A stretch of 64,000 nucleotides of DNA from Podarcis cretensis. Its lineage: Eukaryota. Position numbers and translations under genes: made by a program. The DNA lies in the NCBI GenBank assembly GCA_951804945.1, contig OX638153.1:32426001-32490000 (forward strand). The letters run 5' to 3'. Of this stretch, positions 6,738 to 57,877 are shown piece after piece (within the stretch, counting starts at the first letter, position 1; every line of letters begins with the position of its first letter). The notes below the pieces were generated by a model, which did no database searches, was not told the origin of the DNA, and worked only from the letters and a program-made list of their open reading frames with translations.

Positions 6738-6800
6738 AATAGAATTGTAGAGTTGGAAGGGACCACGAGGGGCATCTTGTCCAACCCGCTTCAGTGCAGG
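6738..6800 (-). mobile_element. CR1 3' tail fragment
   Basis: atagaattgtagagttggaagggacc is the reverse complement of the tail type seen at 57890-57950. Confidence 0.65.
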
Positions 6801-9515: not shown

Positions 9516-10342
9516 TGTCAGAGCTGCCCGAGGTCCCAGCTCACAAAGGACCAAAGCCAGTTCGTTGTTATATACAAAAGTCTTTATTGAAGTTCAGTTT
9601 CGATTTCAAAGCCGCGGCACGCAGCTCTACATCTCAAACTCTAGACCGCTGAAGCTCCGTCTGAATCTCCTCCCCCCAGACACCAGTTTAAGACTCTAGC
9701 CTTGCTCCACCTCTTCCTTTGCTCTTTCCTCCTCTGGGTCCGCCTGTCCGCTGGGGTCTTGCCCTTTCTAGACTCTTCTGACGCTGAGTCCCCTGAGTCT
9801 TCCCCCTCCCCCTGGCGGGCTTTAGGACCTGGCTCCCAATCCGTGCTTCCTGCTGTCCCGCGCGCCTGTACATTCGAACTTGGCGCTCGCGCCCAGCCGG
9901 CAACCTTTCTCCTGACCGTTACACTGCTCCTGTCACTGCTTCCCCCTTCGGGGAGGCTAGCTGGACCTGACTTCCCCTCCGTTCCCTCACTCTCCGATAG
10001 AGGCATGGTCAGTCCTGACTCATCTTCTCTCCCTGCTGGAGGAGACGCTGGCCCTGATACATGGGACTCTTCCCCCCCCCGCTACGCTCTGGTGGGGGAG
10101 CTGGTCCTGATCTCCCGCTGCTGCTTTGGGAGTCCCCGCTGGCCCCTTGCTTCTGGTGCATCCCCCCTGGGACCCCCCTTGCCCTGGCCCTCGGCGCCCC
10201 CCTCTGGGAATCTTCTGATTCGCTGGAGAAGCTCATGGAATCTCTCGTGCCACTGTCATACTCCCCTACGCTGCCCTCAGATTCTTCCCCTTCGCTCTCC
10301 ATTTCCTCTCTCCCCTGTGCCTCTGCTCCTGAGCCCCTGACA
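9516..10342 (-). mobile_element. Solo-LTR-like element, copy A (827 bp)
   Basis: TGTCAG...CTGACA termini. 5-bp flanks CATAC/CATAT (TSD with one mismatch). AATAAA at 9583-9588 (-). Colinear with copy B. Confidence 0.85.
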
Positions 10343-30288: not shown

Positions 30289-32823
30289 CTATGGAAAGGG
30301 AAAGGAAGTAAGGAAAGCCACAATTTTTTCATTACCGTAATGGGATACATAATTGTATGTTCATAACCCTGCGAGGAAAAATACATAAAATTGTTGTTAC
30401 TAAAACAACAGATGTTGCATTTACAGCCTGTCATTGCTTCAAGGTAGGGAGATATCAGTGGTGAAAGTTGGAATTGGCAGGTCTGGAGTACAGAAAAAAA
30501 TGTTTCAGTCACATTTGTCACTGGGCTTAGAATACAAGGCAAGCCTAGATAAGGGATCAATCATGGGATGAGATGGCAAAACTATGTTCTTAAGACCAAA
30601 AATATACTGACCCCACCTGAAGATGGCTTGATATCATGCTAAAAACAATTTATCTTGTTCCATGTACAACTTTGTAGTGTGGAAATCAGAAACTTGGCCA
30701 AGGATGCTTGTCTGAGATAAAGAAATCACCTCTGAATCACAAGCACTTCTTCAAGTCATGCTGGTACCTGTCACTAATCGTGTCTAGTGACAGAGGTGAT
30801 AAAACAATGTAGCTGGGAACTGACGATACCTTGCTTAACCCTAGCAATACAACACCTTCCCCTACCCTACAATGCAGACATTCCTAGGACAATGTAGTGC
30901 ACAGGCAGGTCATCATACAGGATCGTTTTATTTGGGTGTGCACATCACATTCATTTTGGAATTAACCTGCAGCACACAGCCACAGGGTGGAGCTTTATTT
31001 GGACATGTTTGTTTTCTGAAGATTGCCAGAATAACCCAAAACATTTACAGTCAAGTGTTAAGATGTATTTAGAGACAAGTCAGATGGATCGTTTTTTGTT
31101 TATTCACTGCCAAGCATAATTGAACCCATTTGGTTTAATCTGCTGCGGTACAACTCAGCTGCATGGTTTATCTGGGAATGCTTTCCAAGGCTGGTGCTTA
31201 TGAATGAATTATTCTGCCTTACGCTATTTAAAGCACAGAGTGATGGAATCCAGACAGAAGTAAAACATGAGGTCACCATATACAGCAGCTTTCCTCACCA
31301 TTTCAGCTCCGGCTTGAGATAATGGTTCTCCACAGGAAAAGTGGAAGGACAGAAAGTGATAGAAAAGAGGCAAAGCAATGCTCTCAGCTTAGAGCGCCTT
31401 CCCAAAAATGAGCAGTTGACCAAAGCAGCTAGAACTGTATAGAGCTGCCATGAGATTTTAGCTGTCTCTGATGACATCGATCATGTTGCTTCTATAAGTG
31501 GAAATATATATATATATACGCACATATATATGGCAGGGGGACTGGAGCAGATATATAACCAATGCCTGAGCCAAAAATCCACCTATATCTGTAAGCAATA
31601 AAGTTGTGTCCATTTCTAATCCAGATCATTGTCTGCTTGAGTTTATTAAATACATCTTACATTTAGCCACTGCCCATGGGGGCGGTGGCACTATGACTGG
31701 GCCCGCAATAAACAAACAAACAAACAAATAAACAAACTTTGTGGCGAGTTCCCCACTTTTTTTCCAAAAAGAAAGCACTGGTTCTACATCATCTTAAAGG
31801 CATCAGTTTAATTCCAGTTTACAACTGAATGTTTCTGAAAGGTCAAATACGGGAATCAGGAAGTTCGCTAAGTGTACAGGAACTTGTCCCTGCTAGAACA
31901 TACAAGTAATCTCCCCACACAAAAGTGTGATGATTCATATTTGTGCTAACTGCAAGCTAAATGTGTGCACTAGGGGATGAACACATTTCTAAAGCCCCGT
32001 AGCTCTTCAGTATGTTTTCTTCCTTGAAAGGACTGAGCAAGATTCATAGCACCATGGACAGAGAACATTCATTAAAACCAAACATTCCTGCTCATTAAAA
32101 TGGGAAATCATCACACAAATGGGAAGTCTTATACAATCTTGTCACCAACTCCATTAGCAACATAATTTGCCAGATAGCTCATCCCTTTCCAGCTATAAAT
32201 TGCCACCTTGGCCCTTTAGGTCTTACTCAGAGATGGAACAGTAATAAGGTTATTCCCTCTCCCTCTCTGGTCACCATTTGCTTGACAATCCTTGATGAGC
32301 TAACGCTACAGCCTGCTAGCTTTGAGCTGTCCCTTTGAAGCAGTTACTGGCCAATTTCTAGTCTTACTGATTGAATCTTATGTTTTGCCCCTCATCATTT
32401 TATTTCTGGTGATACATCAGTGACTTTTAAAATTAGCGATGACAAATGAAAGAAGTATCATCACAGATGATACTAAAACAAATTAACAAAATAGCTCAAG
32501 TGAAAATGGTGCTTTATTATGTTATAAAATTAATCAAAGAAATGAGACAAATTAAAATGAATTACAAAGTCTTTGCTACATGGGAACCATCAGAGCATAA
32601 CCTTATTTCACTGTCTCCACCCACTCCACCCCACACAGTCTAAACACAGTCTCCAGCATCACCAAGGCAAAGGAGGGAAATGGGAACTCTTATGCTTTGA
32701 GAAATCAACTATTCAGAAGCAAACAAAAATCAGAAAGGATATTTGCTTCTCACATTGCCATATAAAGGATGGATCAAGAACTTATTTTATAATCCTAAGT
32801 GTTGAAAGAGTCAGTCACTTTTC

Positions 32824-34676
32824 GAACTTCCGGGTTAGCGCGATCCGAGTAATGGCGGATTCCCTCCGAGCTCCGGAGGGAATCGGCTCCATTGCAAACG
32901 GGTCTCACCGCGACGGCGACGCGGGGACCCTTAGAAACCGCAGGCGTGGAAGCCTGCGGACCTGGTGACTCGGCGGGCACCTAAAGCGCCCCCCCGACCC
33001 ACGAAGAGCCTTTTTAAAGGCTGCGGAGAGGGTACGGGGAGTGGCGTGGTGCTGTGAGTAGACCGCTACTGCAGTGGAGCGAAGCCGCGAGCCATGGCCG
33101 GAGACCGCTGACTTTCTTCCCTGAAATTTGGACTCTAATTAATCCGTGAGTAGATTGGAATTTGGACTCTAAAAAGCTTATCCTTGAATTCGGCACGATC
33201 GGGGGATGTGCTAAAGGGAAGTCCGCACCCCCCTTGCCTACAGAAAATTTAAAGCAAAGATCGGAGAACTAAGGTGGAGAGTTCTTTCCTTGGTGTTCTG
33301 TAAAAGATAAGATTTGCATGAATTTGGCAGAAGAAGATGTGTGCTGGAGAGTAAGAGTGATTTTTTAGAAGTTTTTGTTTGAACCCCCCCAGACCCGGGG
33401 GTGTCCTTTTATGTGAGCTGGAGAATAAGGAACGAGGAGTTTGACAGCTGTCAAAGGAGCTGTCAAACGGGCAGCGAAAGTGAAAAACTCTATTATTTAA
33501 CACTTTTTGGACTTAATTTGTTATATTCGAACTAAAGTGGTTGGAAACAAAGTAGGGAAATAACAAAGTAAAGGACTATTGGAAAAGATTACTAAGTAAC
33601 TAGAATCCCCCTAGGGGAAACATTGAAACATTGCAATGGCTGCAGATGGAAAACTACAGGCAGAGCTAGAAAGAATGTTTTTTCTTGTGGGAAAACTGGA
33701 GGAGCAGACTATGGTCATGAGTAAACAACTCATAACCTTGAACTCTAAAATAAATGACTCTGCTGAAGGTACAATGGATTTGACTGGGGAAAAATCTGCG
33801 GCTGAATCAGAAGAGATAACTTTGGAACAGGGGGAGAGCGAGCAAGGGCTAGTACAGATGGAGACTACCAACCACAAGCCTTCATTGTTAGAATACAAAG
33901 AAGAAGACCCTTGGATTACAAATCTGCGAAAGATGTGAAAGAGGAGGGAGGAAGCCCCTGGAACATTTGGAACACCTGATTTTAAAAGATATAAGAAATA
34001 TGACCGGGGCTTCCTATTTGAGTATGGACTGGTTGATCTTCTGCAGCAGCTGGTGTCAAGTACTTTGGATGGAAGAAATTTTGATGAGACTGAGCTGAAA
34101 TTTCCCCGAAACCTGAGGACCAATGAGGAGGGTTACCAACAAGATCGGCAAAGAGAGACTGATAAGGACTTAAAGGCCTCAGATGTGAGGAACCCAGGCT
34201 AAAAACTGTTGTTATGGATGGGGGGACATTTGGAAGGGACAGAAACCGGGGCTGGGGGGGGGGAAAGAGAACTTGTTTTTAAATCTTTATGACTTTTGTG
34301 CTTGACTATTATGACCTATTTTTAAGATTAAAGGGAAATTCATGGAAGGAACTCGAGACGACCTTAGAAAAGGTTTTAATGTTTTATAAGAAAATTGGAT
34401 AAGTAAAATCTGGCCAAGTAAATGGTCTTTTTTATAAAAAAAAAAAAAAAACATATATTTATAGATATAGTAATAATATGTAATGGATGAGAGATTTGAA
34501 TTTGCTGAGTTAATGTAATTGAACTAGGATGTATGAAGGGGGGGTGGGGGGAGGTCAAGAACTGGGGTTAGGAAAGTAAGGTTATGAAATTTTATACGTG
34601 TTGTCTTTGTCTTTGTGTGTGTATGTTTGTCTTTATAAAATGTGAAAATTTAATAAAAATATTATAAAAAAAGAAA
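32824..34676 (+). mobile_element. Non-autonomous L1-type (HAL1-like) retroelement, copy 1, ~1.85 kb
   Basis: 20-bp TSD GAAAGAGTCAGTCACTTTTC (32804 and 34677). CpG-rich 5' end starting ACTTCCGG..ATGGCGG. AATAAA plus A-tail. One ORF, no RT. Confidence 0.85.
33636..34202 (+). pseudogene. ORF of element copy 1 (188 codons, one in-frame TGA at 33936)
   Basis: Reading through the TGA gives KRREEAPG...DGRNFDETELKFPRNLRTNEEGYQQDRQRETDKDLKASDVRNPG*, homologous to the copy 2 ORF. Confidence 0.7.
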
Positions 34677-35792
34677 GAAAGAGTCAGTCACTTTTCTTAA
34701 GGTATCAGAGTAACTAATACTGTATGTTACTATTAGTTATTAAACTCATGGAATCTACTGAGTATATCTATTAAATCCAAGTGCCTTAGCTTTTATATCA
34801 TCCCAAGTATGTATGTCCTGGTAGCACAGAATCCAGTTAATGGGTAGTGAGAGAGCTATGAAGCAATGGACACTTGGTCTTTGAAACTGTAAAATCCCAA
34901 AGTAATTAGGATCTGTTTCCACCACTGATCCTACGGATCAGATTCCTTGTAAGGCAGAGGGCTAAAGCAAATAAAAACACGGTAGTCCTTATTTTAACAA
35001 AAGCTGAGGATTAATTTGAAATGATACATTTAAATCTTGTTTTTTTAATTTTGCTGTAACTATTTACTCTGATGCTTCTTTTCAGGAAACCACAGATACA
35101 TTTCAAAGGGAAGAAAGAAGGAAATTGAAACATTCAATATACATTTGAAAAGAAAACAAAAGGAAAGGCCTGGTCTATATTTAAACTGGTTTCTTAGGGA
35201 AGGTAGTGACAACACTGAATACAAAATAAATGAACATTCATACTTTGCAAGTAGGCAAAGTAAAGAGCATTACAAAATTGTGATAACAATGTGACTTAGC
35301 AGTCAGTTGAAAAGACAGGGGCCACATTCTCGCAGGTTAGCCATCTAGACAAGTCTGAACGGGTCCAAGCAAAGTTTTCAGCTTCCATGCTCCCCCTTCC
35401 TTTCTCTGCCTTCCATGGGGCCAGGACTTCAGCAGCATTTAGTTTCATTTTAAAAGAATTTTGGCTCAGCACCACCATGTGCATCAGAGATCCTGGTTTT
35501 AAAAAGCCTATGGCTAGCCACATAGCAAACAAACTCCAAACCATGGGTTATGAAAGTGGGTTTTAAAATGAACCAAGGTTTGTTTTAAATCAGAATCTGT
35601 GGTTCAAACCTAACACTTTAAAAGTGAAACAAAACTCTGCTGAAGTCATCTTGCTCCTGACTGCATGGAAAGAGAAGATGGGAGGGAGGAGTGCACAAGC
35701 CTGATGCACTGTTTGGGCACTTTCAGGTTCACCCACATATGTGCGAACGCAGCCACTAGCTAGCAGTGGTAAGAATTTCAACCACATATTTA

Positions 35793-36467
35793 CCGTATTT
35801 TTCGCCCTATAGGACGCACTTTTTCTCCTCCAAAAATGAAGGGGAAATGTGTGTGCGTCCTATGGGGTGAATGCAGGCTTTCGCTGAAGCCTGGAGAGCG
35901 AGAGGGGTCGGTACGCACCAACCCCTCTCGCTCTCCAGGCTTCAGGAAGCTATCCGCAAGCCTTGCAAGCCCGGCGGGAGGTCCCGCGGGCTCGCAAGGC
36001 TTGTGGACAGCAACCTGCAGCCCACAAGCTCGGGGGACAGCGGGGAGGTGGCACGCCGCCACCCTGCTATTCCCGGACCTGATCTGGAGGCTGGCGGGGG
36101 GGGGGGAGAAGCAAACTTGCTTCTCCCCCCCCCCGCCAGCCCCACAAGTTCGGGGGATAGCGGGGAGGCGGAGCACCGCCACCCCGCTATTCCCGGACCT
36201 GATCTGGAGGCTGGCGGGGGGGGAGAAGCAAGCTTGCTTCTCCCCATCGCCAGCCCCACAAGCTCAGGGGACAGTAGGAGAAGCTGCTGCCCCATGGAGG
36301 CTGTCCCTGAAGACAGAAGAGGGAGACGGAGCGCTCCGTCTCCCTCTTCTAGCTTGGGGATGGCTGCGCAAACCTGGGGGGGAAATAAAAAAATTTTCCT
36401 TGATTCCCCCCCCAAAAAACTAGGTGCGTCCTATGGGCCGGTGCGTCCTATAGGGTGAAAAATACGG
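35793..36467. mobile_element. TcMar-Tc2-like non-autonomous DNA transposon with internal hairpin tandem repeats
   Basis: TA|CCGTATTTTTCGCCCTATAGGACGCAC...GTGCGTCCTATAGGGTGAAAAATACGG|TA, with ~120-bp GC-rich units inside. Confidence 0.88.
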
Positions 36468-36806
36468 TAAATTAGAACTAACGAGAGTGGAAACAGTTTC
36501 TAGTTTTCAGAAGTATCAACATTAAGCAGAAACTGCACGGGTGGATACTCCATAATTATCTCTCTCAGTAATACTACTTGTTATCAGCCCAAGGGCAAAC
36601 TCATTACAGACCCTTCTTTACCTACAAAGAGGTTGCAATAACCTTATCTCCTGGATATCTTGCGGTATATTTTCTGGCAGAAACAATCAAACTCAGAGGT
36701 TGAGAGCCTTCTCAAGAGTCATTATATTACTTTTGCAAATTCATATATAATCACTTTGTGGAATTAAAATGATTTTTTTAAATTAGAAAAGCAGGGGGAA
36801 ACTTAC

Positions 36807-36926
36807 TTGTTAGAGCCATCCTTCATGTGAACTTTTGCATAGAGAACATCCATCATGGCTGGATCATCATTCATGTACTCTACACCTGCTACTTCTACAG
36901 TTAGTGGTTTGCCTCCAGCAATTGAG
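36807..36926 (-). CDS. ASCC1: ASCC1 coding exon (120 bp)
   Basis: aaacag acceptor and gtaagt donor. DSIAGGKPLTVEVAGVEYMNDDPAMMDVLYAKVHMKDGSNK. Confidence 0.95.
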
Positions 36927-36960
36927 CTGTTTGAAAGAGGGGGAAAACACCAAACACAGT

Positions 36961-37785
36961 TGTCAGGGGCTCAGGAGCAGAAGCACAGGGAAGAGGGGAG
37001 ATGGAGAGCGAAGGGGAAGAATCTGAGGGCAGCGTAGGAGAAGATGACAGTGGCCTGAGAGATTCCATGAGCCTCTCCAGCGAATCGGAAGATTCACAGA
37101 AGGGGGCGCCGGTGGCCAGGGCAAGGGGGGTCCCAAGGGGGACACTCCAGAAGCAAGGGGCCAGCGGGGACTCCCAGAGCAGCAGTTGGAGATCAGGACC
37201 AGCTTCCCCACCTGAGCATAGTGGGGGGGAAGAGTCCCAGGTATCGGGGGTAGCGTCTCCCCCAGCAGGGAGAGAAGAGGAGTCAGGGCTGACCACGCCT
37301 CCATCGGAGAGTCAGGCAACGGAGGGGAGGTCAGGTCCAGCTAGCATCCCGGAAGAGGGAAGCAGTGACAGAAGCAGTGTAATGGTCAGGAGGAAGGTCA
37401 CTGGGTTGGCGCGAGAGCCAAGTTCAAAAGTACAGGCGCGCAGGGCAGCAGAGAACGAGGATTGGGAACCGGGTCCTAAAGCCTGCCGGAGGCAGGGGGA
37501 GGAGTCAGGGGACTCAGCGTCAGAAGAGTCCAGAAAGGGGAATGCCTCAGCGGACAGGAGGACCCAGAGGAGAAGAGAGCAGAGGAAGAGGTGGAGCAGG
37601 GCTAGAATCTTAAACTGGTGTCAGGGGGGAGGAGATTCAGACGGAACTTCGGCGGTCTAGGGTTTAAGACGTAGAGCTGCGCGCTACGGCTTTAGAATGG
37701 AAACTGAACTTCAATAAAGACTTTTGTATATAACGACGACCTGGCGTTGGTCCTCTGTGAGCTGGGACCTTGGGCAGCTCTGACA
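36961..37785 (+). mobile_element. Solo-LTR-like element, copy B (825 bp)
   Basis: TGTCAG...CTGACA termini. Perfect 5-bp TSD ACAGT (36956-36960 and 37786-37790). AATAAA near 37713. Confidence 0.88.
37001..37660 (+). CDS. Putative 219-aa protein encoded inside the LTR-like element (Ser/Glu-rich, Arg-rich C-terminal motif)
   Basis: ATG-to-TAG ORF. The same start and stop occur in copy A (10302 to 9641, -), where a +2 G-homopolymer slip splits it. Function unknown. Confidence 0.4.
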   Translation: MESEGEESEGSVGEDDSGLRDSMSLSSESEDSQKGAPVARARGVPRGTLQKQGASGDSQSSSWRSGPASPPEHSGGEESQVSGVASPPAGREEESGLTTPPSESQATEGRSGPASIPEEGSSDRSSVMVRRKVTGLAREPSSKVQARRAAENEDWEPGPKACRRQGEESGDSASEESRKGNASADRRTQRRREQRKRWSRARILNWCQGGGDSDGTSAV

Positions 37786-39980
37786 ACAGTTCATATTTAA
37801 GATTTGGCAACTGCATAATTCACTTGGTCAGCTGCACTAGGCTACACCAATTCACCAACACAGTTTCTCCCCCACTTTTTAATGGAGGTTTATGGATTAC
37901 TTCAATTAAATTTATATATTTTAGTGCGGCTGTTATTTCAGTAGTTTGATGCATATTTAATTTTTTATTTTCATTATTTTCTTTTAAGCCTTTGTATGCT
38001 GCTTGAAAATACTTTTTTGAACAGAATATCATACAAAATAAAATGATCATCAGCAGAATTCACAACTATATCCTGTCCCCAGCAAATTCCCCAGAATACC
38101 TACCCTTTCTTCCCTAGAAGACAGAATGGATTGTTCATCACTATTGACTTTTGCCCTTGTTTCTGCTGTTTCTAGAATCATATAAACCTAACTTAGTTCA
38201 ATTAATTTCAGTGCGTCTGCTCTGAGCACGTTAGCCGACTACAACCCAATGGATTCAGCTCACAACAATTTTACACTATAGAACATTGAATCATACAGAG
38301 CAATGCCTCCAGGCCTCCTAAGCCCCAACAGATTATTGTCCCATTGTGAAACTTATAATGAAGACATTCAGATTATTTTGCCACATAGAGTGTCACAGGC
38401 TGTATTAATGGTCCCATCAAATGGAATGTTGTATGATCATATGAGGGTCAGTTCATATGAGGTCATCACAGGGATTCACTGAGATAGAGGAAAATTAAAT
38501 CCTGTCATTATTAATGTAGATTGCAAGCTTTACATGCAGCAACTTCTAGATACTATACAGCACAGTGCTAGTAATATTTAACTGTTAAAGAGTACAAACA
38601 ACTGTAGCATATTTCCCATACATAATAAACTGCCAAATACTGTCAAATATTAAAGCAAAGGATGAGAATTTTATCTATTTCTGTGGATAGTATCAGAATC
38701 TATGCAGCTAGCTGCTCCCTGAATAACACAGACAAAGGCCTTTTCTCTGACAATTTAAACAAACAATCTAGAAAAGCATGTTGCTCATTGTGCTGCCAAG
38801 TCCTCATCACACACTAATGTCAACTTGGTGACACACACACAAGCATCCTGCGATGCAAAACTGGGTCCAGAAGTCCTCAACTTTGAGCTGGCCTCAATAA
38901 ACCAAGTCAATTTTGTGACTGCCACCAATCCTCCTGCTATGGATAAAATCTTTGTCGTTGCACTTGGAGGCACTGAGCAGTGAGAAATTTTGCTGCATTA
39001 GAGTGACTCTGAAGCTCAGCAAAGCAGGGCCAAGCCCTCTCCATCAACCCCCTTTTCCTTAGGAGAGAGTGGTGGGAGGCTCAAGCCTGCAGTCACAAAA
39101 GGAATGTAAAGTAAGAGATGGGCAGGGGCTCATCTCTGACCTCTCTTTGGTCTTCAGGGGCACAGTAAGGCTTCTTGCCACTTCTGAGCACCTCACTGAT
39201 TTCAAGTGCCTCTGAAGCCCAAAGCAAGGTCAGAGACAAGCCCCTGGCCATAACTCACTTTGCATTTGCCACCAATGTGCTTACCTGCTAAAAAAATATG
39301 CTCATCATTTGCAAGCTCATCTGCGGGTCTCACCCTGCAAGCTAGGGATCATTCTGCTAAAAGGTCCTTGCAAAAAGATTGGAAGTGAAAAAAATATCGG
39401 GGGGGGGGGGGGAGATTCATAGTTTCACAGCTTGCTAATTCTACAGCTCAAAGACAATGGGTTTGTGTAGTAGATTATGACAACTCCTGCACTGTAGAAT
39501 CACTGATCTACTGTATTAGAGCTTATTTTTTTAATACAGTTCAATACTCTCTACCTTCGACTTGTTTCGGAAATTAATCTCAGGGATATACGACCATTGA
39601 GTGGGGGGAGCTATTTGCCAAAGGCTCTGCTAGTGAAAAAGTGCCAAGGCAATCCCATTTTTCATGCACTTCCAGGAGGGGAGAATCAATCTTTGTTCAT
39701 GTACAAATAAAACCAGCTACTGTAAGAGAGAGAAATGCTAGGTTATAATAAGATTGCAAGCAAAGAGATGCTTCTAAATGGTTTATATCAAGAACAAAGT
39801 GCAATTAGGTCCTTGTATTGTTTTGTGTAGGCTTTTCATTTACTCCTAATAATGGTTTGCTGAACTGCTGCAAGCTGGGATACCCCACACCCCTCTAAGT
39901 TACCCTGGCCCTAGAACCAGTACTTCTTTTTGAGTGCTGCAGCTGGATTATGGCATCCCAAGTGCTTTCAATTTACTCAC

Positions 39981-40117
39981 TCAACAAAGTCTTCTTTACA
40001 CCTCTGTAGGAGTTCTTGGGCCTTCTGGATTTCCTGTTCATTCAGGAGTACCAGTGTCCCAATAGTCAGATGGAGCTTGGCAGGGTTCTGGAACAGGCTA
40101 CTACTGACACCATAGTC
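39981..40117 (-). CDS. ASCC1: ASCC1 coding exon (137 bp), first HxT motif (HLT)
   Basis: ctacag acceptor and gtgagt donor. DYGVSSSLFQNPAKLHLTIGTLVLLNEQEIQKAQELLQRCKEDFV. Confidence 0.95.
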
Positions 40118-40321
40118 CTGTAGAAACATTGAGAAATTCATTGAGTGACATCAGAAATTCATGTTTTCATTACTTTTGCATATCTAGGAATCTGTGTCGC
40201 TTTTAAGGTATAGAGCAGATCTCTATTACAAGCGAGGCTTTATGTTCTAAAAAATGTGGAGCAGCTATTGGTTCTTTATTCCAATCTCACATATTTGTAA
40301 CCAGGTACCTGTAGCATCTGT

Positions 40322-41090
40322 GGGACGCAGGTGGCGCTGTGGGTTAAAGCCTCAGCGCCTAGGACTTGCCGATCGAAAGGTCGGCGGTTCGAATCCCTGC
40401 GGCGGCTTGTTTGTGCAGAGTGGGTGGGGGCGTCTACTATGTTCCATGGTATAAGCGTGCTAACACTGCCAGGGTAGATGACTGCAATGCGTTATACATG
40501 GGGCTGCCTCTGGTTCGGAAACTTCAGCTGGTGCAGAATTCAGTGCCCAGGTTGCTCACCAGGGCAAGATGCTTTGAGCATATTACACCAATCCTGGCCC
40601 AACTGCACTGGCTGCCAAATAAGTTTCCGGGCCCAATTCAAAGTGCTGGTTTTGACCTATAAAGCCTTAAATGGCTCAGGACTGCAATACCTCAAGGACT
40701 GCCTCTCCCCATATGAACTGACCCAAATAAAACTGATTGTTTTATTTTATTTAATACCATCCATCTGATCATCATCTAAGGTCCTTCTTTGTTTGCCTCT
40801 TCCACGAGAGGTCCGGAAGGTGGCAACACAAGAATGGTCCTTTTCCGTGGTGGCTCCGTTTGTGAATGTTCTCTCCCTGGGAGGCTCACCTGGCACCTTT
40901 GTTACATATCCTTAGGCACCAGGCAAAAGCATGCCTTTCGCTGGCCAGAGCAGCGATGTCACGCTGGCCACGTGACCCGGAAGTGTCTCCGGACAGCGCT
41001 GGCCCCTGGCCTCTTAAGTGAGATGGGCGCACAACCCCAGAGTCTGTCAAGACTGGCCCGTACGGGCAGGGGTACCTTTACCTTTACCTT
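40322..41090 (+). mobile_element. Chimeric Sauria SINE (head + L2 fragment + tail)
   Basis: SINE head 40322-~40405, L2-like 3' ORF2 fragment ~40470-40930, SINE 3' part ~40938-41090. One TSD TACCTGTAGCATCT (40306 and 41091) flanks the whole unit. Confidence 0.85.
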
Positions 41091-42694
41091 TACCTGTAGC
41101 ATCTTAGGGAGACTTATTCAACTGCTATCTCCATCTTGTAACTGAGTCTTCAAGGTAACCTCATAGCTAAACATCCAGCCCAATTTACTTTATTTCTTTT
41201 TCCTTCTCTCCCAATCCCCTATTTTGTGTAACATCTTGCCTAATTGAAGAATTCTCGAGAACTCAATAACTTTTTGTAATGTTTTGCTTTCTTCTGAGAA
41301 AGGTATTAACCAACTCCATATTTTTGAAGTAGAACGTCTGATGATCAGAATTCAAAATGGGTGACATGCAAAATTAAAGTCATATAATAACATGGCAATA
41401 GCAACAAATAGGAAATATTATTTTTTAAAAAAACAGCAAACTAAAAAATGCCCAGATAAATGTATTCAAATTACATTACATAATTTCCTACATTTTGCTG
41501 GCTCCTGCATTTTAAAATCAGTTAGCTCTTATCTTCATAGCTGCTTTAGAAAAGGTAATTTCCCTACAGGTAATTGTCTTGTCTCCATTCAACCACATTG
41601 TTAATTTTTACATTTCAGAAACCCAAGTGATGCTGCACAGCAGGGGGCCAGCTAATGACTCCCTTTCTTATATGCAAGTCTTATTTGAAGGAGCAAAGTG
41701 GCAGATCATTTGCTACTCCTCGGCCACATATACAGTGATGCAGGCTGTAGAATCAACACACCCTTACTCTCATCTTGTTTGATGCCTGCCTATGCGCTGC
41801 ACACATGGGAGATGCTAGCAATATGTATCACACTGTAATAGCTATATGCCGTGGCTAGGCGTGGCACCAGCAAGGCTGGGGCGCATGTGTGTCAGATGAC
41901 AGTGCATGGCAGGAGACACCGGGTGATGCAGGAAGCGTTGGAGTAGCAGGGGGCTCTGCCACACAAGGACCCTGGAATTATGATGACTAAATGTATTACC
42001 AACCCTTCATCAGCAGGTCCCACAACAGTAACAACAATTTAAAATTTGGTATTAAAAATGTTAAAAAGAAATAATAGTCACAGAATTTCAGGTGCCAAAG
42101 GCCGGGGTGAATTGGCGTGTCATCAGCATTCACTGAAAGCTGTATAGTGAAGTCACCAGATGTATCTCTGTGAAGAGGGAATTCCACACCTTAGGGGTTG
42201 CCACGGAGAGAATGCCCTTTCCCCAGGCCACTGCCCCCTGAATTTCTGAGGGTGGCAGAACTACCAGCCCCCCCCCCCGATCTTAACACCTGAGAGGGTC
42301 TGTAGAGAAGGAGGCAGTCTTTCAGCTATTTGGGGCCTAAGTCGTTTAGGGCTTTAAACACTATCTACATAGGGAAATTAATTTTCAACAGTGAATGAAC
42401 TGTACCAACTGGAAGAAATATACCAACTGGAAGAAAGACCAAGAACATTGATTTAGGGCCCTACATCCTCCAAGAGTCAGGAATCACTATAGCATATCTA
42501 TTCAGTGTAAAAATAGATCCAAGTATGAGGAACGCAGAGGTCTTGATCCCTGAATAGTAGAAGTTTGACAAAGGCTTTTTCTTGTTTCTAAGCTTTTAGA
42601 AAGACTGCTCCAATTTGAGTTTTGTCAGCCACCTTTATACACAGAAACTTTTAAATCATTCGCTGAAATCTTCCAGAAACAGAAAGTTCCACAG

Positions 42695-42832
42695 CAGTCT
42701 ATGCCAACCTGGTGTCCCCGAGATGTTTTGGACTATAATTCCCATCAACCTCCGACAGCAAGGCGATAATGGACAGGCCTGATGGGAGTTACAGTCCAAA
42801 ATATCTGAACAGAACCAGGTTGGCAAAGACTG
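42695..42832. mobile_element. Palindromic hAT-type MITE (target of element copy 2)
   Basis: cagtctatgccaacctgg...ccaggttggcaaagactg. Confidence 0.75.
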
Positions 42833-42833
42833 C

Positions 42834-44710
42834 TTTTTTTAAAAAAAGTAATATTTATTAAAATTTCAAAAAATACATAATCTGAAAAAAAAGAAAAAAG
42901 AAAAAGAAAATTTCAACATTTACAATCCAAATTTTCAACACCTTCTTTCCAGGACTTCCCCTCGCCTCCCCTTCTTGTATTCCCTGTCCAGAAATTTGTT
43001 CAACAAGTTCTTCTTCTTAAGTTCTTAACCTTAAATTGTTATTATATTAACTTCACTTTATATATCAACTTTTAGCATATATACATCAATCATTATACTT
43101 AAAAACTTTTTCTAAGGTCGACCCAATTCTCCTTCCACGAATTCCCCATATCAATACTAGTAACAACATAGAAAGAAAAAAAGATATAATAAATCAGAAT
43201 ATTTTGGTACGCCTTTTGGATTTCCAAAACCCCACCCTCCCTTCCCCGGTTTCGATCCCCAAGCCACTGTCCATTAGTCCATCTGTTATCAGCCCGGCAG
43301 TCTCACATCTGAGGCCCTTAAATCTCTCTCAGTCCCTCTCTGCCAGTTTCTTTGAAAGTCTTTTATATTAAACACCAAGTCTCGGAGGGGCACTATCCCT
43401 ATAATATCCATGTTTCTTCCAGCTGGATCTCCATATTTAAAATCTTGATTCTCAATCCTTCTAAGTCCAAATAGCCAGAAAATTCCATCTTCCACCTTGA
43501 TCAAATTTGTAAAACATAAGTCTTCAGATCCCTGCTCAAGGAGATCCTTCCATTCCTGATTTTCCAAATTAAACCCAGTTTTTATCAACCAATTCTTACT
43601 TTCTTTTATATTCATCTTGACAGACCTCCGGCTCTCCTTTATCTTCTGCAACATTACAGCCCCTCCTTCCTGCTCCTCTTGCTCAAATTTTTTTCCCTGT
43701 TCAGCTGCCTGGGTTTTGTAGATCAAATCCTTTTCCAGCTCAGTAGGTTCCATTACTGTTGGCTTCAAAGTTGTGGCACTTGTAGACAAAACATGGCCTT
43801 GTTCATGTAACTTACACAACTTTCTCACGAGAAACCTAACCTCCTCCAGGCCAGCTAGTATTTTTTGGCCTATTTCCATTTTTGTAATGTCCCTGAACCC
43901 CCACTAGAGGGGTTCTGGTTATTTCAGTATTCCTTTCACAAAAGCCAAGTCAGTTTGTTTCAATTCTTCTTTATTTTCAACAGTTAACTATATTGTATCA
44001 AATGTAACCAGCAAAGACAACGGAAACAAAGTTCTCTACTTTCCCCGACTTTGACAGCTAGTTTGACAGCTGTCAAAATCTTCTATGTCTCTTCCGCAGG
44101 CTCCTCTCGCAGATCGCTCCCGGTCCCGGGATGAGTGGCACCTTAATTCAAAAAATAACTCTTCTCCTCCAGCCCAATCACTTATACAGTCAATCCGTGG
44201 AATTAATAACTTTTATCAAATAAAAAAAAGACTCCTCCTTCGACCTTAGTAGTTAAAATCCTTGCTTTATATTGTTATACAATAGGGGGGAGGCGGACTT
44301 CCTTTTTGCACCTCCCCCGCTCGTGCCAAACCAAAAAAGAAAAAAAAGTTTTAAGTCCAATTTCCAAGTTACTCACGGGTTGTTGTTTTTAGATTTAGTC
44401 CCAATTCTCCAAAGAAGAAGTTAGCGCTCTCCGTCGAATGGCATGCGGCTTCGCTCGGTAGGGGAAGCAGAAGACTCTCAGCACTGCGCCGCTCCCCGTC
44501 CTCCGCTCCGTAGCCTTTAAAAAGGCTCCTTCGTGGTCGGGGAGGACGCAAACGGTGCCCGCCGAGTCACCAGGTCCACGGGCTTCTGCGCCCGTGGTTT
44601 TTGAGGGTCCCCGCGTCGCCGGCGCGGCAGGACCCGACCCCTTTCGAGCCAATTCCCTCCGGAGCTCGGAGGGAATCCGCCATTCGGCTATGGCGCCAAC
44701 CCGGAAGTCC
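42834..44710 (-). mobile_element. Non-autonomous L1-type (HAL1-like) retroelement, copy 2, ~1.88 kb
   Basis: 12-bp TSD GGCAAAGACTGC (42822 and 44711). Same 5' head (gacttccgggtt...aatggcggattccctccgagctccggagggaat). AATAAA plus A-rich tail. Confidence 0.85.
43289..43879 (-). CDS. Intact 196-aa ORF of element copy 2, unknown function
   Basis: ATG in aaaATGG context, open to TGA, homologous to the copy 1 ORF at the N-terminus, middle and C-terminus. Confidence 0.6.
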   Translation of the reverse strand: MEIGQKILAGLEEVRFLVRKLCKLHEQGHVLSTSATTLKPTVMEPTELEKDLIYKTQAAEQGKKFEQEEQEGGAVMLQKIKESRRSVKMNIKESKNWLIKTGFNLENQEWKDLLEQGSEDLCFTNLIKVEDGIFWLFGLRRIENQDFKYGDPAGRNMDIIGIVPLRDLVFNIKDFQRNWQRGTERDLRASDVRLPG

Positions 44711-45633
44711 GGCAAAGACTGCCTTAAACAAACCATTGTATTGTTCCATATCTTATGACTCCAGTTATGATCCTGCAGACTCCAAGACTCACTGAACATG
44801 GGCAATAATCTGCAGACAGAGCTAGGAATCCCTTATCAATGCTGCCCATGTTATTGGGAAAGCGTTACTACCGTCACTGCTACCTTCCAGGCCCTCACAG
44901 ACAAAGGAGGCCAAATTGATAATATTCAATTCAATTCAGTTAATGACAATTCCACCTTTCAACGGGAATGCTCAAAGCAGCTGAGAACAAAAGCTCTCTC
45001 TCTCTCCCATTCTTTCCATTCTGCCAACTAGTACAAAAACAAAGCTGAAAAAGGTCCTCATTCTCTTCTGCATGAAAGCTTATTTAGGATATACTGCAAA
45101 GACAAAGTGGTTGTACTTATGAGCTTTCTCTTCAAATATGGGACAAGCCCCAGAAGCCATTTAGTCCATAATGAACACAGGGAGCCTCAGAAGCTGGGGA
45201 GGCAGCAGGGGGCAGGTTTGTTATGTTCCAACTGTTGACAGCAGTTCATTTTAATTTCTGTAATGCTCACAGAGATGATGTGCACAAAATATATTAACAC
45301 AATAAATAAGCAGCTTTTAGGAAAAGAGGCATATTCAATCTAATCCCATGGGGGAGGGGAAAGGAGATTTCATGTTATAATTACCAGCAACCTAATCAGC
45401 TGAATTTCTTCTCTACAGCTTTCCAGGAATCAGTGGTATCTTACATGCTCTGACAGCTTCCTATTCTGATGCTGCACATCACTAGGAAACACCTGAACTA
45501 GCTTCGCAGGAGGAAGCCCCATTAATAGCAGAGAAGATCCATAACTCCTTCCTATAAATTATCTGCAAATATCAAACCAACTGCTTCTCATCTTTTACTA
45601 CATTTTCAGAGCTCTAGTGATTGTGGTCTAAAT

Positions 45634-53933: not shown

Positions 53934-54962
53934 ATGGAGGGTGAGGGAACAGCTGCAGTCGCCTGCGGTTCCTGCGCAATGTTTGCCATCTTGCCAAAGG
54001 TTGCAGGCAGCTTTACCTGCAGCAATTGCATGTTGACTGCCCTCTTAAAAGACAAAGTCCAGCAACTGGAGGAACGTGTAGCTACGCTCCAAAGAATTAG
54101 AGAGCTGGAGCTCTTCTTGGAAGCAACAGAGCACACCGTCTCCACCAAGGAGGAGACAGGGGACTCCCCTGAGAAGGAGGCTAGTTCACCAACACAGGAG
54201 CCAGATATATGGAGAAACGTGACTCAAAGAAGTAGGAGGCCCAGGGTTCGCTCTGATTGTTTAGAAATACACAATTGCTTTGAGGTCCTCTCCCCTAGCA
54301 TGGAAGACGAAGAGCAGACTCCATTTGAGTATCTCTCCCTCATTACAGTCGATCAGGTATATGAAGACGAGCAGCAAAGTCAGTCCTCAGGGAATGTGCA
54401 GGCAACCTTGGAACGGACAGCTCACGGAAGAACCCCGACCAAACCTAAAAGGAGGCGTGTAGTGGTGATAGAGGATTCCCTACTGAGGGGAACAGAAGCA
54501 GTGATCTGTGGGCCTGACAAGATGTCTCGGGAAGTGTGCTGTCTCCCCGGGGCTAAGATCCAAGATGTAACTGAACGACTGCAAGGAATCATAAAACCCA
54601 CTGACAAATACCCCTTCCTCTTGGTTCATGTGGGAACCAATGACACTGCAAGCAATAGCCTCCAGAAGATCAAAAGAGACTACGAGGCTCTGGGCAGGAA
54701 ATTGAAGCAATTAAATGCACAAACTGTCATCTCATCTGTCCTCCCAGTTGAACTACGTGGCCCAGGGAGAGAGGGAAAAATAGTGGAAGTGAACAGCTGG
54801 CTTCGCAAATGGTGTAAACAGGAACAGTTTGGATTCTTAGATCACGGACTGCAGTTTCTTGAAGATGGACTTCTGGCAAGCGATGGGCTGCACCTCACAA
54901 CGGTTGGGAGGAATGTTTTTGCCAAAAATCTCAGAAACCTCATCAGGAGGGCTTTAAACTGA
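53934..54962 (+). CDS. CR1 ORF1p (Zn finger/leucine zipper + SGNH esterase-like domain), 342 aa
   Basis: CxxC..CxxC, coiled coil, VVIEDSLLRG (GDS-like), HVGTND, DGLHL. Confidence 0.9.
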   Translation: MEGEGTAAVACGSCAMFAILPKVAGSFTCSNCMLTALLKDKVQQLEERVATLQRIRELELFLEATEHTVSTKEETGDSPEKEASSPTQEPDIWRNVTQRSRRPRVRSDCLEIHNCFEVLSPSMEDEEQTPFEYLSLITVDQVYEDEQQSQSSGNVQATLERTAHGRTPTKPKRRRVVVIEDSLLRGTEAVICGPDKMSREVCCLPGAKIQDVTERLQGIIKPTDKYPFLLVHVGTNDTASNSLQKIKRDYEALGRKLKQLNAQTVISSVLPVELRGPGREGKIVEVNSWLRKWCKQEQFGFLDHGLQFLEDGLLASDGLHLTTVGRNVFAKNLRNLIRRALN

Positions 54963-54967
54963 CTAAT

Positions 54968-57877
54968 GTGGGGGAGGGAGACAGTGCTCCTGAAGGTAGG
55001 AGTCTATCAATTGATGAAGATGATCATCCAAATGTCATAGACCAAATGGAGCAAACAGCACGCAGACCTAGTGGTGGGAGGAAAAAATCCTTAAATAAGA
55101 GACACGGGGGAATGATTAATGGACTTCAATGTCTGTACACTAATGCGCAAAGCATGGGAAATAAACAAGATGAGCTTGAGCTCTTGGTACAGCAAACTAA
55201 ATATGACATAATAGGCATCACTGAAACCTGGTGGGATAAGTCCCACGATTGGAATGTAATAATGGAGGGATACAATCTATTTCAGAGAAACAGACCAGAC
55301 AAAAAAGGAGGAGGAGTGGCGTTATATGTCAGGGATGTGTATACCTGTGAAGAGATCCAAGATTTAGAACCTCAAAGCCAAAGTGAGAGCATATGGGTCA
55401 AAATTAAGGGAGAGAAGAATAACAGTGACCTCATTGTGGGAGTTTACTATAGATCCCCAAGCCAAACGGAGGACATAGATGATGCCTTCCTGCAACAGAT
55501 GGCCAAGCATGCAAAAGGAAGGGAGATAGCAGTAATGGGGGACTTAAATTACTCGGATATTTGTTGGATGTCACACTCAGCCAAGAGCATAAGGTTAAAC
55601 AGATTCCTCACTGACCTTGAAGACAACTTCATTGTCCAGAAAGTGGGAGAAGCAACAAGAGGAGCACCATTTTAGATCTGGTCCTAACCAATGTTGATGA
55701 CCTGGGAAGTGGAAGGATCATTAGGTGTGAGTGATCATGCTCTTCTGAAGTTTACTATACAGCGGAAAGGAGCAGCCAAGCATACTAGGACTCAATTTCT
55801 TGACTTTAAGAAAGCCGACTTCATAAAACTTAGGGAAGTGCTGGGTGAGATCCCATGGACAGTAATACTAAAAGGAAAGGGAGTTCATGATGGCTGGGAG
55901 TTTGTTAAGAGGGAGATAGTAAAAGCACAACTTCAGGCAATACCAATGAGACGGAAACATGGAAGGTGCCTAAAGAAGCCAGGGTGGCTATCTAAAGAAC
56001 TTTTAACTGAGTTAAGATTAAAAAAGGATGTGTACAAAAAATGGAAAAGGGGGGAAACCACCAAAGAGGAATTCAAACAAATAGCCAGCACGTGTAGACA
56101 CAAAGTCAGAAAAGCTAAAGCACGGAATGAACTCAGGCTTGCTAGAGAGGTTAAAAGCAACAAAAAAGGCTTTTATGGGTATGTTTGTAGCAAAAGGAAG
56201 AACAAAGAAACAGTGGGGTCACTCAGAGGAGAAGATGGTGAAATGCAAACAGGGGACACAGAAAGGGCTGAACTCCTCAATGCTTTCTTTGCCTCAGTCT
56301 TCTCCGATAAAGAAAACAATGCCCAACCTGAAGAATTTGGAGCAAATGATTCAGCAGAGGAAACACAGCCCAGAATAACTAAGGAGATAGTACAAGAATA
56401 CTTGGCTAGTTTAGATGTATTCAAGTCTCCAGGGCCAGATGAACTGCATCCAAGAGTATTAAAAGAACTGGCAGATGTGATCTCAGAACCACTGGCAGTC
56501 ATCTTTGAGAATTCCTGGAGAACAGGCGAAGTCCCGGCAGACTGGAGGAGGGCAAATGTTGTCCCTATTTTCAAAAAGGGGAAAAGAGAGGACCCAAATA
56601 ATTACCGCCCAGTCAGTCTGACATCAATACCAGGGAAGATTCTGGAGCAGATCATTAAGCAAACAGTCTGTGAGCACCTAGAAAGGAATGCTGTGATCAC
56701 CAATAGTCAGCATGGATTTCTGAAAAATAAGTCATGTCAGACTAACCTGATCTCGTTTTTTGACAGAATTACAAGCCTGGTAGATGAAGGGAACGCAGTG
56801 GATGTAGCCTACCTTGATTTCAGCAAGGCATTTGACAAGGTGCCCCATGATATTCTTGTAAAGAAGCTGGTAAAATGCGGTCTTGACTATGCTACCACTC
56901 AGTGGATTTGTAACTGGCTAACTGACCGAACCCAAAGGGTGCTCATCAATGGTTCCTCTTCATCCTGGAGAAGAGTGACTAGTGGGGTGCCACAGGGTTC
57001 TGCCTTGGGCCCGGTCTTATTCAACATCTTTATCAACGACTTGGATGATGGACTCAAGGGCATCCTGATCAAATTGCAGATGACACCAAACTGGGAGGGG
57101 TGGCTAACACCCCAGAGGACAGGATCACACTTCAAAACGACCTTGACAGATTAGAGAACTGGGCCAAAACAAACAAGATGAATTTGAACAGGGAGAAATG
57201 TAAAGTATTGCACTTGGGCAAAAAAAAATGAGAGGCACAAATACAAGATGGATGACACCTGGCTTGAGAGCAGTACATGTGAAAAGGATCTAGGAGTCTT
57301 GGTTGACCACAAACTTGACATGAGCCAACAGTGTGACGCGGCAGCTAAAAAAGCCAATGCAATTCTGGGCTGCATCAATAGGAGTATAGCATCTAGATCA
57401 AGGGAAGTAATAGTGCCACTGTATTCTGCTCTGGTCAGACCTCACCTGGAGTACTGTGTCCAGTTCTGGGCACCACAGTTCAAGAAGGACACTCACAAAC
57501 TGGAACGTGTCCAGAGGAGGGCAACCAAAATGGTCAAAGGCCTGGAAACGATGCCTTATGAGGAATGGCTAAGGGAGCTGGGCATGTTTAGCCTGGAGAA
57601 GAGGAGGTTAAGGGGTGATATGATAGCCATGTTCAAATATATAAAAGGATGTCACATAGAGGAGGGAGAAAGGTTGTTTTCTGCTGCTCCAGAGAAGCGG
57701 ACACGGAGCAATGGTTCCAAACTACAAGAAAGAAGATTCCACCTAAACATTAGGAAGAACTTCCTGACAGTAAGAGCTGTTCGACAGTGGAATTTGCTGC
57801 CAAGGAGTGTGGTGGAGTCTCCTTCTTTGGAGGTCTTTAAGCAGAGGCTTGACAACCATATGTCAGGAGTGCTCTGA
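54968..57877 (+). pseudogene. CR1 ORF2 (APE endonuclease + RT), disrupted
   Basis: [39 protein letters not shown]. Frame breaks near 55670-55700, at the FADD codons (~57073) and in the A-run near 57225. Confidence 0.92.

What the first reader, a model, noticed from the sequence alone, without database searches (positions are those of the whole stretch)
32824..44710. RT-less ~1.85-kb retroelement family carrying a fast-evolving ~190-aa orphan ORF (two full-length copies)
Seen: two complete elements (32824-34676 +, 42834-44710 -), each with a long TSD (20 and 12 bp), AATAAA plus A-tail, and a shared CpG-rich head. Each has one ORF at the same position: 196 aa intact, and 188 codons with a single TGA. 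The proteins are very divergent but align in blocks: KLQAELERMFFLVGKL/KILAGLEEVRFLVRKL, LLEYKEEDPWITNL/LLEQGSEDLCFTNL, and GRNxD......RxL..N....Q...QRxTxxDL[KR]ASDVRxPG-stop. No RT or endonuclease is present, and I see no L1 ORF1p RRM signature such as RRNN[IL]RI.G[IL]PE. Known: long TSD plus poly(A) is the L1 TPRT signature, and HAL1 elements are mammalian L1 derivatives encoding only ORF1p. Inference: frames kept open across this much divergence imply selection on the protein in active master copies. This looks like a squamate L1-parasitic element encoding its own rapidly evolving protein, possibly a coiled-coil ORF1p mimic or an anti-silencing factor.
Basis: partly seen in the sequence, partly recalled or inferred. 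Interest (0 to 1): 0.85.

Follow-up and report, generated by a model that had tools for sequence, protein, structure and literature searches.

The report
Half-L1 parasites with eroded ORF1 protein
These are two copies of an abundant jumping-DNA family that arose when a LINE-1 element lost its copying enzyme; its small protein is a worn-down LINE-1 ORF1 protein, not an orphan, which keeps a predicted self-assembling coil and likely helps the element borrow LINE-1's machinery, although one young branch spreads with no protein at all.

Summary
In detail: two full-length elements (TSDs 20 and 12 bp, poly-A), from a family of likely thousands of copies. The 'orphan' reading does not. A 2.25-kb sister subfamily (type C) is a plain internal deletion of a full-length L1 in the same genome: 5'UTR + ORF1 joined to the last ~40 codons of ORF2 and the 3'UTR. 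Its 261-aa protein is 52% identical to that L1's ORF1p. The window's 188/196-aa proteins descend from it (profile match, probability 97.7%) through further deletions that remove the basic N-terminus and most of the RRM and CTD. So this is a HAL1-type (ORF1-only) L1 parasite in a probable lizard. The frame is under weak purifying selection (dN/dS 0.52; shifted frames 1.0; true L1 ORF1 0.02-0.06), strongest at the N-terminal heptad coil and the C-terminus. The coil is predicted to trimerise. Against an essential role: a young ORF-less subfamily (99% identical copies) nests inside the coding ones. What is new is an erosion series in one genome, L1 to HAL1 to RRM-less HAL1 to non-coding, not a new kind of element.

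The parts
32804..32823 (+). copy 1 left target-site duplication (20 bp)
   Evidence: exact repeat at 34677-34696
32824..34676 (+). copy 1, full-length HAL1-type element, subfamily A (1853 bp)
32824..33635 (+). copy 1 5'UTR, L1-derived; internal promoter inferred
   Evidence: 67% over nt 3-437 to the 5'UTR of full-length L1 L316; colinear with the L187 5'UTR
33144..33151 (+). conserved splice-donor-like motif in the 5'UTR (use not shown)
   Evidence: present in 26 of 26 5'UTRs including the parent L1s; position
33608..33614 (+). conserved splice-acceptor-like motif ~20 nt before the ATG (use not shown)
   Evidence: 25 of 26 5'UTRs; position
33636..34202 (+). eroded ORF1p, 188 codons; stop at 33936-33938 is private to this copy
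33654..33752 (+). heptad coiled coil, residues 7-39, predicted parallel trimer
   Evidence: sequence (a/d pattern 7,11,14,18,21,25,28,32,35,39); dN/dS 0.36 over residues 1-30
34203..34676 (+). 3'UTR: decayed ORF2 C-terminal remnant, L1 3'UTR, AATAAA (34652) and A-tail
   Evidence: 65% over element nt 1619-1811 to the L316 3' end
34677..34696 (+). copy 1 right target-site duplication
42822..42833 (-). copy 2 3' target-site duplication (12 bp)
42834..44710 (-). copy 2, full-length HAL1-type element, subfamily B (1877 bp)
42834..43288 (-). copy 2 3'UTR with AATAAA (42859) and A-tail
   Evidence: 62-83% to the L316 3' end
43289..43879 (-). eroded ORF1p, 196 aa, intact
43880..44710 (-). copy 2 5'UTR, L1-derived, with donor-like (44378) and acceptor-like (43910) motifs
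   Evidence: 69% over nt 2-458 to the L316 5'UTR
44711..44722 (-). copy 2 5' target-site duplication

Best explanation
These elements are HAL1-type non-autonomous L1 derivatives made by one internal deletion of ORF2, and their small protein is an eroded ORF1p whose retained N-terminal coiled coil is predicted to trimerise and likely co-assembles with L1 ORF1p, which would help the element's RNA gain access to L1 ORF2p. Shown: origin by deletion from a specific L1 lineage; L1-type insertions (16-19 bp TSD, T/AAA target, A-tail); loss of the basic N-terminus and most of the RRM and CTD; weak purifying selection concentrated at both protein ends; and an ORF-less offshoot that still amplifies. Inferred: transcription from the inherited L1 promoter, and copying by L1 ORF2p in trans. 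Also inferred: the nascent coil joins L1 ORF1p trimers during translation, giving a modest cis advantage that is helpful but not essential. Odds: about 0.95 for the ORF1p origin, about 0.45 for the co-assembly step.
For: Type C vs full-length L1 L316 (blastn): 5'UTR 72%, ORF1 67% up to L316 nt 3258, then a jump to ORF2 nt 6938, and the 3' end 65%. Protein 52% over residues 1-260, E 2e-80. The shared C-terminal motif aligns in frame with L316 ORF1's own end, and the final Gly-stop sits at the junction. Profile of 26 short proteins vs type C: probability 97.7, E 2.4e-12; 48.2 bits without the tail against a best shuffle of 7.3. The same profile scores ORF1 of the two related L1 families at 20.9 and 23.2 bits (best of 200 shuffles of the first: 9.5) and 11 other L1 ORF1s below zero. 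Lizard ORF1 profile vs human ORF1p structure 2ykp: E 7.7e-11. TSDs were found for 83 of 107 heads, 59 of the 83 being 16-19 bp; A at +1 to +3 in 59-61 of 83. dN/dS on 17 copies is 0.52 in frame (lnL -4245 vs -4276 at 1), against 1.05 and 1.00 in the shifted sense frames; by segment 0.36 (residues 1-30), 1.11 (31-70), 0.31 (176-196). Neutral simulation leaves 12 of 1000 frames open at 0.2 substitutions per site and 0 of 1000 at 0.5. Homotrimer model of residues 1-55: 0.39 against best control 0.00, contacts at the a/d positions, runs agree 76%, pLDDT at least 69. That mark was reached by 21 of 30 solved microbial homo-pairs and 0 of 23 monomers, and in eukaryotes by 17 of 29 and 0 of 30. Kojima 2018 (PMC5786205, section 23 read) proposes the same multimerisation role for HAL1, HeT-A and Ag-Sponge proteins.
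Against: Type N (1.62 kb): 40 listed hits at 98-100%, mean pairwise identity 98.9%. No ATG ORF reaches 30 codons in the old ORF region in 30 of 30 copies, and a shared frameshift was scored in 26 of 30. It nests among B-type 5'UTRs (support 94/95), so the protein is dispensable. Selection is weak: 9 of 18 pairwise tests reach p<0.05, and none of the 7 within lineage B (dN/dS 0.52-0.89). Type C vs E gives 0.98. Singleton pN/pS is 0.69 against 0.44 for shared variants, Fisher p=0.052. The window proteins do not match L1 ORF1p directly: hhalign probability 2.5-4.2; single-sequence scores were beaten by 165 and 7 of 500 shuffles. The link runs through type C. The trimer pass may be from memory of solved coiled coils, and binding to L1 ORF1p was not tested. 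Without an RRM, and with acidic pI 4.9-6.2, how the protein would favour its own RNA is unexplained apart from co-translational assembly. Expression is not shown.
Confidence: 0.55

Rival explanations
1. Translation matters, the protein does not: an open frame ending near the 3' end keeps the RNA on ribosomes and away from nonsense-mediated decay, near newly made L1 ORF2p.
For: All surviving length changes are in frame (187-215 aa); residues 31-110 evolve near neutrally (dN/dS 1.11 and 0.76); lineage B pairs are not significantly below 1.
Against: dN/dS is 0.31-0.47 in four of six segments, each with a large likelihood gain; the last 14 codons show many silent changes and few replacements; the heptad register is kept; type N spreads without any frame.
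Confidence: 0.17
2. The protein is a dominant-negative decoy: it poisons L1 ORF1p trimers, lowering L1's own mobilisation and freeing ORF2p for parasites, or benefiting the host.
For: Human ORF1p truncated after the coiled coil forms heterodimers and cuts L1 retrotransposition to as low as 4%, more strongly without the RRM (PMC5605252, abstract and section 18 read). The lizard proteins have the matching anatomy: coil kept, RRM lost. A trans-acting protein would also explain ORF-less cheaters such as type N.
Against: In that paper the coil without the N-terminus did not suppress, and these proteins lack the ORF1p N-terminal ~48 residues. A trans benefit is hard to select for in individual source copies. 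Young L1 families remain abundant.
Confidence: 0.18
3. The ORF is a neutral vestige in slow decay.
For: Type N is dead yet active; 1 of 3 elements in the random 400 kb is intact; dN/dS is about ten times that of true ORF1.
Against: In-frame 0.52 against about 1.0 in shifted frames on the same alignment; gap-free pairs give 0.52 (p=0.007); the frame survives in subfamilies separated by dS 0.4-1.2, where neutral survival is near zero.
Confidence: 0.07
4. One reading: an orphan or anti-silencing protein unrelated to ORF1p, or an extra ORF in the 5'UTR of three-ORF L1s.
For: No Pfam, Atlas or structural match for the short proteins; loci L103 and L110 show the element directly upstream of ORF1 and ORF2.
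Against: Stepwise homology to ORF1p. L103 and L110 are nested insertions: a 5'-truncated L1 with its own TSD inside the element's 3'UTR, the outer TSD intact, and no second copy of the L103 junction among 44 matches.
Confidence: 0.03

Closest known systems
HAL1 (half-L1) elements of mammals (Smit 1999; Bao and Jurka 2010, known here only through passages in PMC5753468, PMC3627910, PMC5786205, PMC4859970)
   Same: Non-autonomous L1 derivative with 5'UTR, ORF1 only, 3' end and poly-A; coding capacity kept over long times; faster ORF1p evolution than L1 (that last point recalled from the Bao and Jurka abstract, not read here).
   Different: Independent origin from a non-mammalian L1 lineage. In the window's subfamilies the protein is cut to about 55% of ORF1p, without the basic N-terminus and most of the RRM and CTD. 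An ORF-less daughter subfamily is active, which conflicts with the view that cis ORF1p is required (PMC3627910 passage).
HeT-A (Jockey clade) and Ag-Sponge (CR1 clade), ORF1-only non-autonomous LINEs
   Same: One protein, proposed to multimerise with the autonomous partner's protein (PMC5786205 section 23).
   Different: Different LINE clades; no telomeric role; dispersed insertions with L1-type TSDs.
ORF-absent bipartite non-autonomous LINEs (RIME, NARTc, Bov-A, Vingi and R2 derivatives)
   Same: Type N keeps only non-coding 5' and 3' LINE parts and is amplifying.
   Different: PMC5786205 (2018) lists only RTE, Ingi, Vingi and R2 as sources; type N comes from L1, by way of a HAL1 stage, and is 1.6 kb long.
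L1 ORF1p (human structures 2ykp, 2yko)
   Same: Descent, and an N-terminal heptad coil predicted to trimerise.
   Different: No positively charged N-terminus (required in human L1, PMC5940361 abstract), RRM and CTD broken by deletions, acidic pI.

Membership tests
HAL1-type (ORF1-only non-autonomous L1) | 5' and 3' ends derived from an L1 | tested here: met
   both window copies match the L316 5'UTR (67-69%) and 3' end (62-83%)
HAL1-type (ORF1-only non-autonomous L1) | ORF2 absent through internal deletion | tested here: met
   type C junction L316 nt 3258 to 6938; vestige of the ORF2 end after the stop
HAL1-type (ORF1-only non-autonomous L1) | single ORF homologous to ORF1p | tested here: met
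   direct for type C (52%); via profile and type C for the window proteins; direct pairwise match not significant
HAL1-type (ORF1-only non-autonomous L1) | amplifies as a unit by TPRT (TSD, poly-A, many copies) | tested here: met
HAL1-type (ORF1-only non-autonomous L1) | coding capacity maintained by selection | tested here: met
   dN/dS 0.52 vs 1.0 in shifted frames; weak, and lost in type N
HAL1-type (ORF1-only non-autonomous L1) | ORF1p required in cis for mobility (proposed for mammalian HAL1) | tested here: not met
   ORF-less type N amplifies, 30 of 30 copies; genomic inference only
Named mammalian HAL1 families (Repbase) | sequence descent from mammalian L1 / listed entry | not testable with these tools
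   no Repbase or Dfam here; descent is from a local L1 lineage, so membership is of the class, not of those families
Canonical L1 ORF1p | coiled coil able to trimerise | tested here: inconclusive
   heptads present; model passes at 0.39 vs 0.00, but may be from memory
Canonical L1 ORF1p | intact RRM and CTD | tested here: not met
   deletions in alignment A9; AF2 pLDDT below 50 there even for type C
Canonical L1 ORF1p | basic N-terminus | tested here: not met
   first 48 residues of L316 ORF1 are missing
Autonomous three-ORF L1 | extra ORF upstream of ORF1 in a replicating family | tested here: not met
   L103 and L110 are nested insertions
LTR element or provirus | terminal repeats and 4-6 bp TSD | tested here: not met
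   no terminal repeats; TSDs of 9-21 bp and an A-tail

The most novel reading that the evidence does not exclude
A lizard L1 parasite has remodelled ORF1p into a minimal, RRM-less coiled-coil adaptor or decoy that hijacks or poisons L1 particles, made from a spliced transcript while the unspliced RNA is copied. ORF-less cheaters then exploit it. The genome would hold a complete, datable path from LINE to HAL1 to a non-coding SINE-like element.
Probability: 0.3. Interest if true: 0.75.

Novelty: new variant of a known kind. Interest (0 to 1): 0.5.

Why it matters
HAL1 elements are described from mammals, and their ORF1p was argued to be needed in cis. Here one genome holds every stage at once: the parent L1, a near-full ORF1p HAL1, several subfamilies whose ORF1p has lost its RNA-binding domains yet stays under selection at the coil and tail, and an active ORF-less daughter. 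That makes two open questions directly testable with natural alleles: what ORF1p does for a non-autonomous element, and whether truncated ORF1p regulates L1 in nature. It also shows that 'orphan' proteins in repeats can be ORF1p eroded beyond the reach of Pfam, HMM and structure searches.

Tried and rejected
Three-ORF L1 (L103, L110): rejected as nested insertions. Pfam on the short proteins: nothing above cut-off; a PF02994 genome search rang nowhere, controls included, so it is uninformative. ESM Atlas: no usable hit. Database searches found only 3 and 11 unnamed Logan proteins, all of this family. AlphaFold2: mean pLDDT 44.5 (window protein) and 54.3 (type C), only the N-terminal helix confident; Foldseek on type C gave no match at E<=0.001. 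Direct profile comparison of the short proteins with ORF1p was not significant. Expression: no RNA holder listed; two guessed-RNA contig sets cover parts of the ORF but may be DNA, and show no splice joint, so no evidence either way. Summed DNA depth is not a copy number and was not used. Splicing: donor- and acceptor-like motifs are conserved, but none of 110 genomic heads showed the spliced form. Two pairwise dN/dS fits were saturated and set aside (type C vs L197 ORF1; L094 vs L098 ORF1). Earlier scan findings: none. Bao and Jurka 2010 could not be read. Literature searches listed no paper whose title or abstract start describes HAL1-type elements in lizards; Repbase, Dfam and subscription journals were not searched, so the family may already be catalogued.
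Full report
OBSERVATION. Both elements are as described. Copy 1 spans 32824-34676 (+) between exact 20-bp repeats, and copy 2 spans 42834-44710 (-) between exact 12-bp repeats. Each has AATAAA and an A-rich tail. Their heads are 71% identical over 696 nt. The ORFs are 188 codons with one internal stop and 196 aa intact. DNA searches of the 1.5-Gb own genome gave 996 and 841 first-look candidates, 40 scored each. Of the top 30 fetched for copy 1, 29 carry the intact 188-aa frame; the stop is private to the window copy. Of the 30 for copy 2, 16 carry a full frame of 187-212 aa. These are best hits, so they overstate intactness. In a 400-kb sample of eight regions chosen without regard to the family there were 3 elements, 1 intact; that is roughly 11,000 per genome, with a wide interval (about 2,000-33,000; my arithmetic). 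Among 107 heads in the fetched loci, 83 had a TSD of at least 9 bp, 59 of them 16-19 bp, with T at -1 in 41 and A at +1 to +3 in 59-61. This is L1-type insertion (established knowledge). The host looks like a lizard; that rests on recalled repeat types and was not tested.

A FALSE LEAD. Among 20 loci fetched around endonuclease hits (16 of them L1), L103 and L110 had the element directly upstream of ORF1 and ORF2, suggesting a three-ORF L1. In both, a 5'-truncated L1 with its own short duplication sits inside the element's 3'UTR, and the element's tail and outer TSD resume after it. No second copy of the L103 junction appeared among 44 matches. Rejected.

ORIGIN. The random sample yielded a longer relative (L149). 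A search with it found a 2.25-kb subfamily, type C; 16 of 30 fetched copies encode a 260-261-aa protein ending in the same motif as the window proteins. Following the family's 3' end led to two related L1 families. Against full-length L316, type C aligns in order: 5'UTR 72%, ORF1 67% up to nt 3258, then ORF2 from nt 6938 and the 3'UTR at 65%. That is one 3.7-kb deletion. The protein is 52% identical to L316 ORF1p over residues 1-260 (E 2e-80) and 36% to the sister family (E 8e-43). The conserved tail is ORF1p's own C-terminus, cut at the junction. A profile of eight ORF1s from this genome matches the human ORF1p structure at E 7.7e-11. The window copies match L316 directly in both UTRs (62-83%), but their proteins match only stepwise. 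The profile of 26 short proteins hits type C at probability 97.7, and at 48.2 bits without the tail against a best shuffle of 7.3. It hits the two related ORF1s at 20.9 and 23.2 bits (best of 200 shuffles of the first: 9.5) and scores 11 other L1 ORF1s below zero. Against this, hhalign to ORF1p gives probability 2.5-4.2, and single-sequence scores for copy 2 and for an intact sibling of copy 1 were matched by 165 and 7 of 500 shuffles. Pfam, the Atlas and folding see nothing, but Pfam also misses genuine ORF1s here.

EROSION SERIES. In alignment A9, type C has lost the first 48 residues, three heptads and part of the RRM. Types E, D and B (187-215 aa) have further lost the second half of the RRM and 17 residues of the CTD. 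Type A (copy 1) has also lost the first RRM strand and helix. The pI falls from 8.8-9.0 to 4.9-6.2. On a 5'UTR tree of 26 copies the elements lie apart from the two L1s (100/100), with C+E on one side and D, A, B, N on the other (82/86) (L316 was not in this tree). Type N is a 1.62-kb subfamily with 40 listed hits at 98-100%. In 30 of 30 copies no ATG ORF in the old ORF region reaches 30 codons, a shared frameshift was scored in 26 of 30, mean identity is 98.9%, and TSDs were found in 16 of 30. It nests among B copies (94/95). The frame was therefore lost in a lineage that kept amplifying.

SELECTION. Pairwise maximum-likelihood dN/dS among short ORFs is 0.42-0.89, with 9 of 18 pairs at p<0.05 and none of the 7 within lineage B. 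Type C vs E gives 0.98. True L1 ORF1 gives 0.02-0.06 (3 pairs, high dS) and ORF2 0.05-0.06. On a tree of 17 natural copies (167 of 239 codon columns kept) dN/dS is 0.52, lnL -4245 against -4276 at 1; the other five frames give 1.05, 1.00, 1.47, 0.88 and 1.37. By segment: 0.36 (residues 1-30), 1.11, 0.76, 0.47, 0.41 and 0.31 (176-196). Within subfamilies, singletons give pN/pS 0.69 and shared variants 0.44 (p=0.052; four of the five sets were ranked by protein score, which biases them down). Neutral point mutation leaves 12 of 1000 frames open at 0.2 substitutions per site, while subfamilies differ by dS up to 1.2. So selection on the protein is real, weak and concentrated at the ends. Only intact copies entered these fits.

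MECHANISM. Residues 7-39 of type A form an uninterrupted heptad repeat. A three-copy model of residues 1-55 scored 0.39 against a best control of 0.00, with contacts at those a/d positions, 76% agreement between runs and pLDDT at least 69. The mark was reached by 21 of 30 solved microbial homo-pairs and 0 of 23 monomers, and in eukaryotes by 17 of 29 and 0 of 30. A pass may come from memory of solved coils, and binding to L1 ORF1p was not modelled. I commit to this reading: the RNA is made from the inherited L1 promoter and copied by L1 ORF2p in trans (inferred from the TSDs and tails), and the coil co-assembles with L1 ORF1p during translation, giving a modest, dispensable advantage (inferred, about 0.45). 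The rivals are a dominant-negative decoy (0.18), translation for RNA stability alone (0.17), a neutral vestige (0.07) and a true orphan (0.03). A donor-like motif near nt 320 and an acceptor-like motif near nt 790 are conserved in 26 and 25 of 26 5'UTRs, parent L1s included. Splicing them would remove upstream ATGs (2-9 per UTR), but none of 110 genomic heads showed the spliced form, and expression could not be tested.

KNOWN CONTEXT. Kojima 2018 (PMC5753468, passages) defines HAL1 as a non-autonomous L1 derivative encoding only ORF1p, arising several times in mammals. PMC5786205 (passages and section 23) groups HAL1, HeT-A and Ag-Sponge, proposes multimerisation with the partner's protein, and lists only RTE, Ingi, Vingi and R2 as sources of ORF-absent bipartite LINEs. 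PMC3627910 (passage) reports long-kept HAL1 coding capacity as implying a cis need. PMC5605252 (abstract and section 18) shows that truncated human ORF1p suppresses L1 in trans, but not the coil alone. PMC5940361 (abstract) shows that human L1 needs a basic N-terminus. PMC5203782 (passages) has no HAL1 mention. Bao and Jurka 2010 was not readable. Seven searches (listings only) showed no lizard HAL1 paper; Repbase and Dfam were not checked.

VERDICT. A real family, and a member of the HAL1 class by structure and origin, not an orphan-protein element. It is a new variant because the ORF1p has lost its RNA-binding domains yet stays under selection, and because an ORF-less daughter is active. Interest 0.5.

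Noticed in passing
window 36961-37785 (+) and 9516-10342 (-): 825-bp element with TG...CA ends and 5-bp TSDs, solo-LTR-like, 3526 first-look candidates, top hits 98-99% identical. It holds a 219-220-aa Ser/Gly/Arg-rich ORF intact in the first window copy and in 6 of 7 siblings; split in the second window copy; no Pfam match.
   Followed up: partly
window 53934-57877 (+): Near full-length CR1-type LINE: 342-aa ORF1 with a GDSL esterase domain (E 2e-8) and an ORF2 in three pieces.
   Followed up: no
L103, L110, L092: In 3 of 16 L1 loci fetched around endonuclease hits, the L1 sits inside a copy of this element family; possibly a preferred target.
   Followed up: partly
L183:3066-3162 and L192:5059-5137: 2 of 20 copies of the L197 family join an 80-97-nt L1 head directly to a 3' part: fresh internal deletions of the kind that founded this family.
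   Followed up: partly
window 33441-33454 and 44063-44076: Palindromic motif TTGACAGCTGTCAA conserved in the 5'UTR of both copies, with a similar motif in the L1 5'UTR; possible factor-binding site.
   Followed up: no
L091-L105, L110: Many distinct L1 families with intact 1242-1264-aa ORF2 frames coexist; their ORF1s escape Pfam Transposase_22.
   Followed up: partly
L145:8193-9835 (-): Broken element intermediate between types C and E (RRM deletion present, CTD still complete); its subfamily was not searched.
   Followed up: no
L149:4850-5560: An LTR-like element with tandem repeats inserted in the 5'UTR of a type C copy.
   Followed up: no
window 35788-36472: Cluster of short palindromic and duplicated GC-rich segments; not identified.
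   Followed up: no
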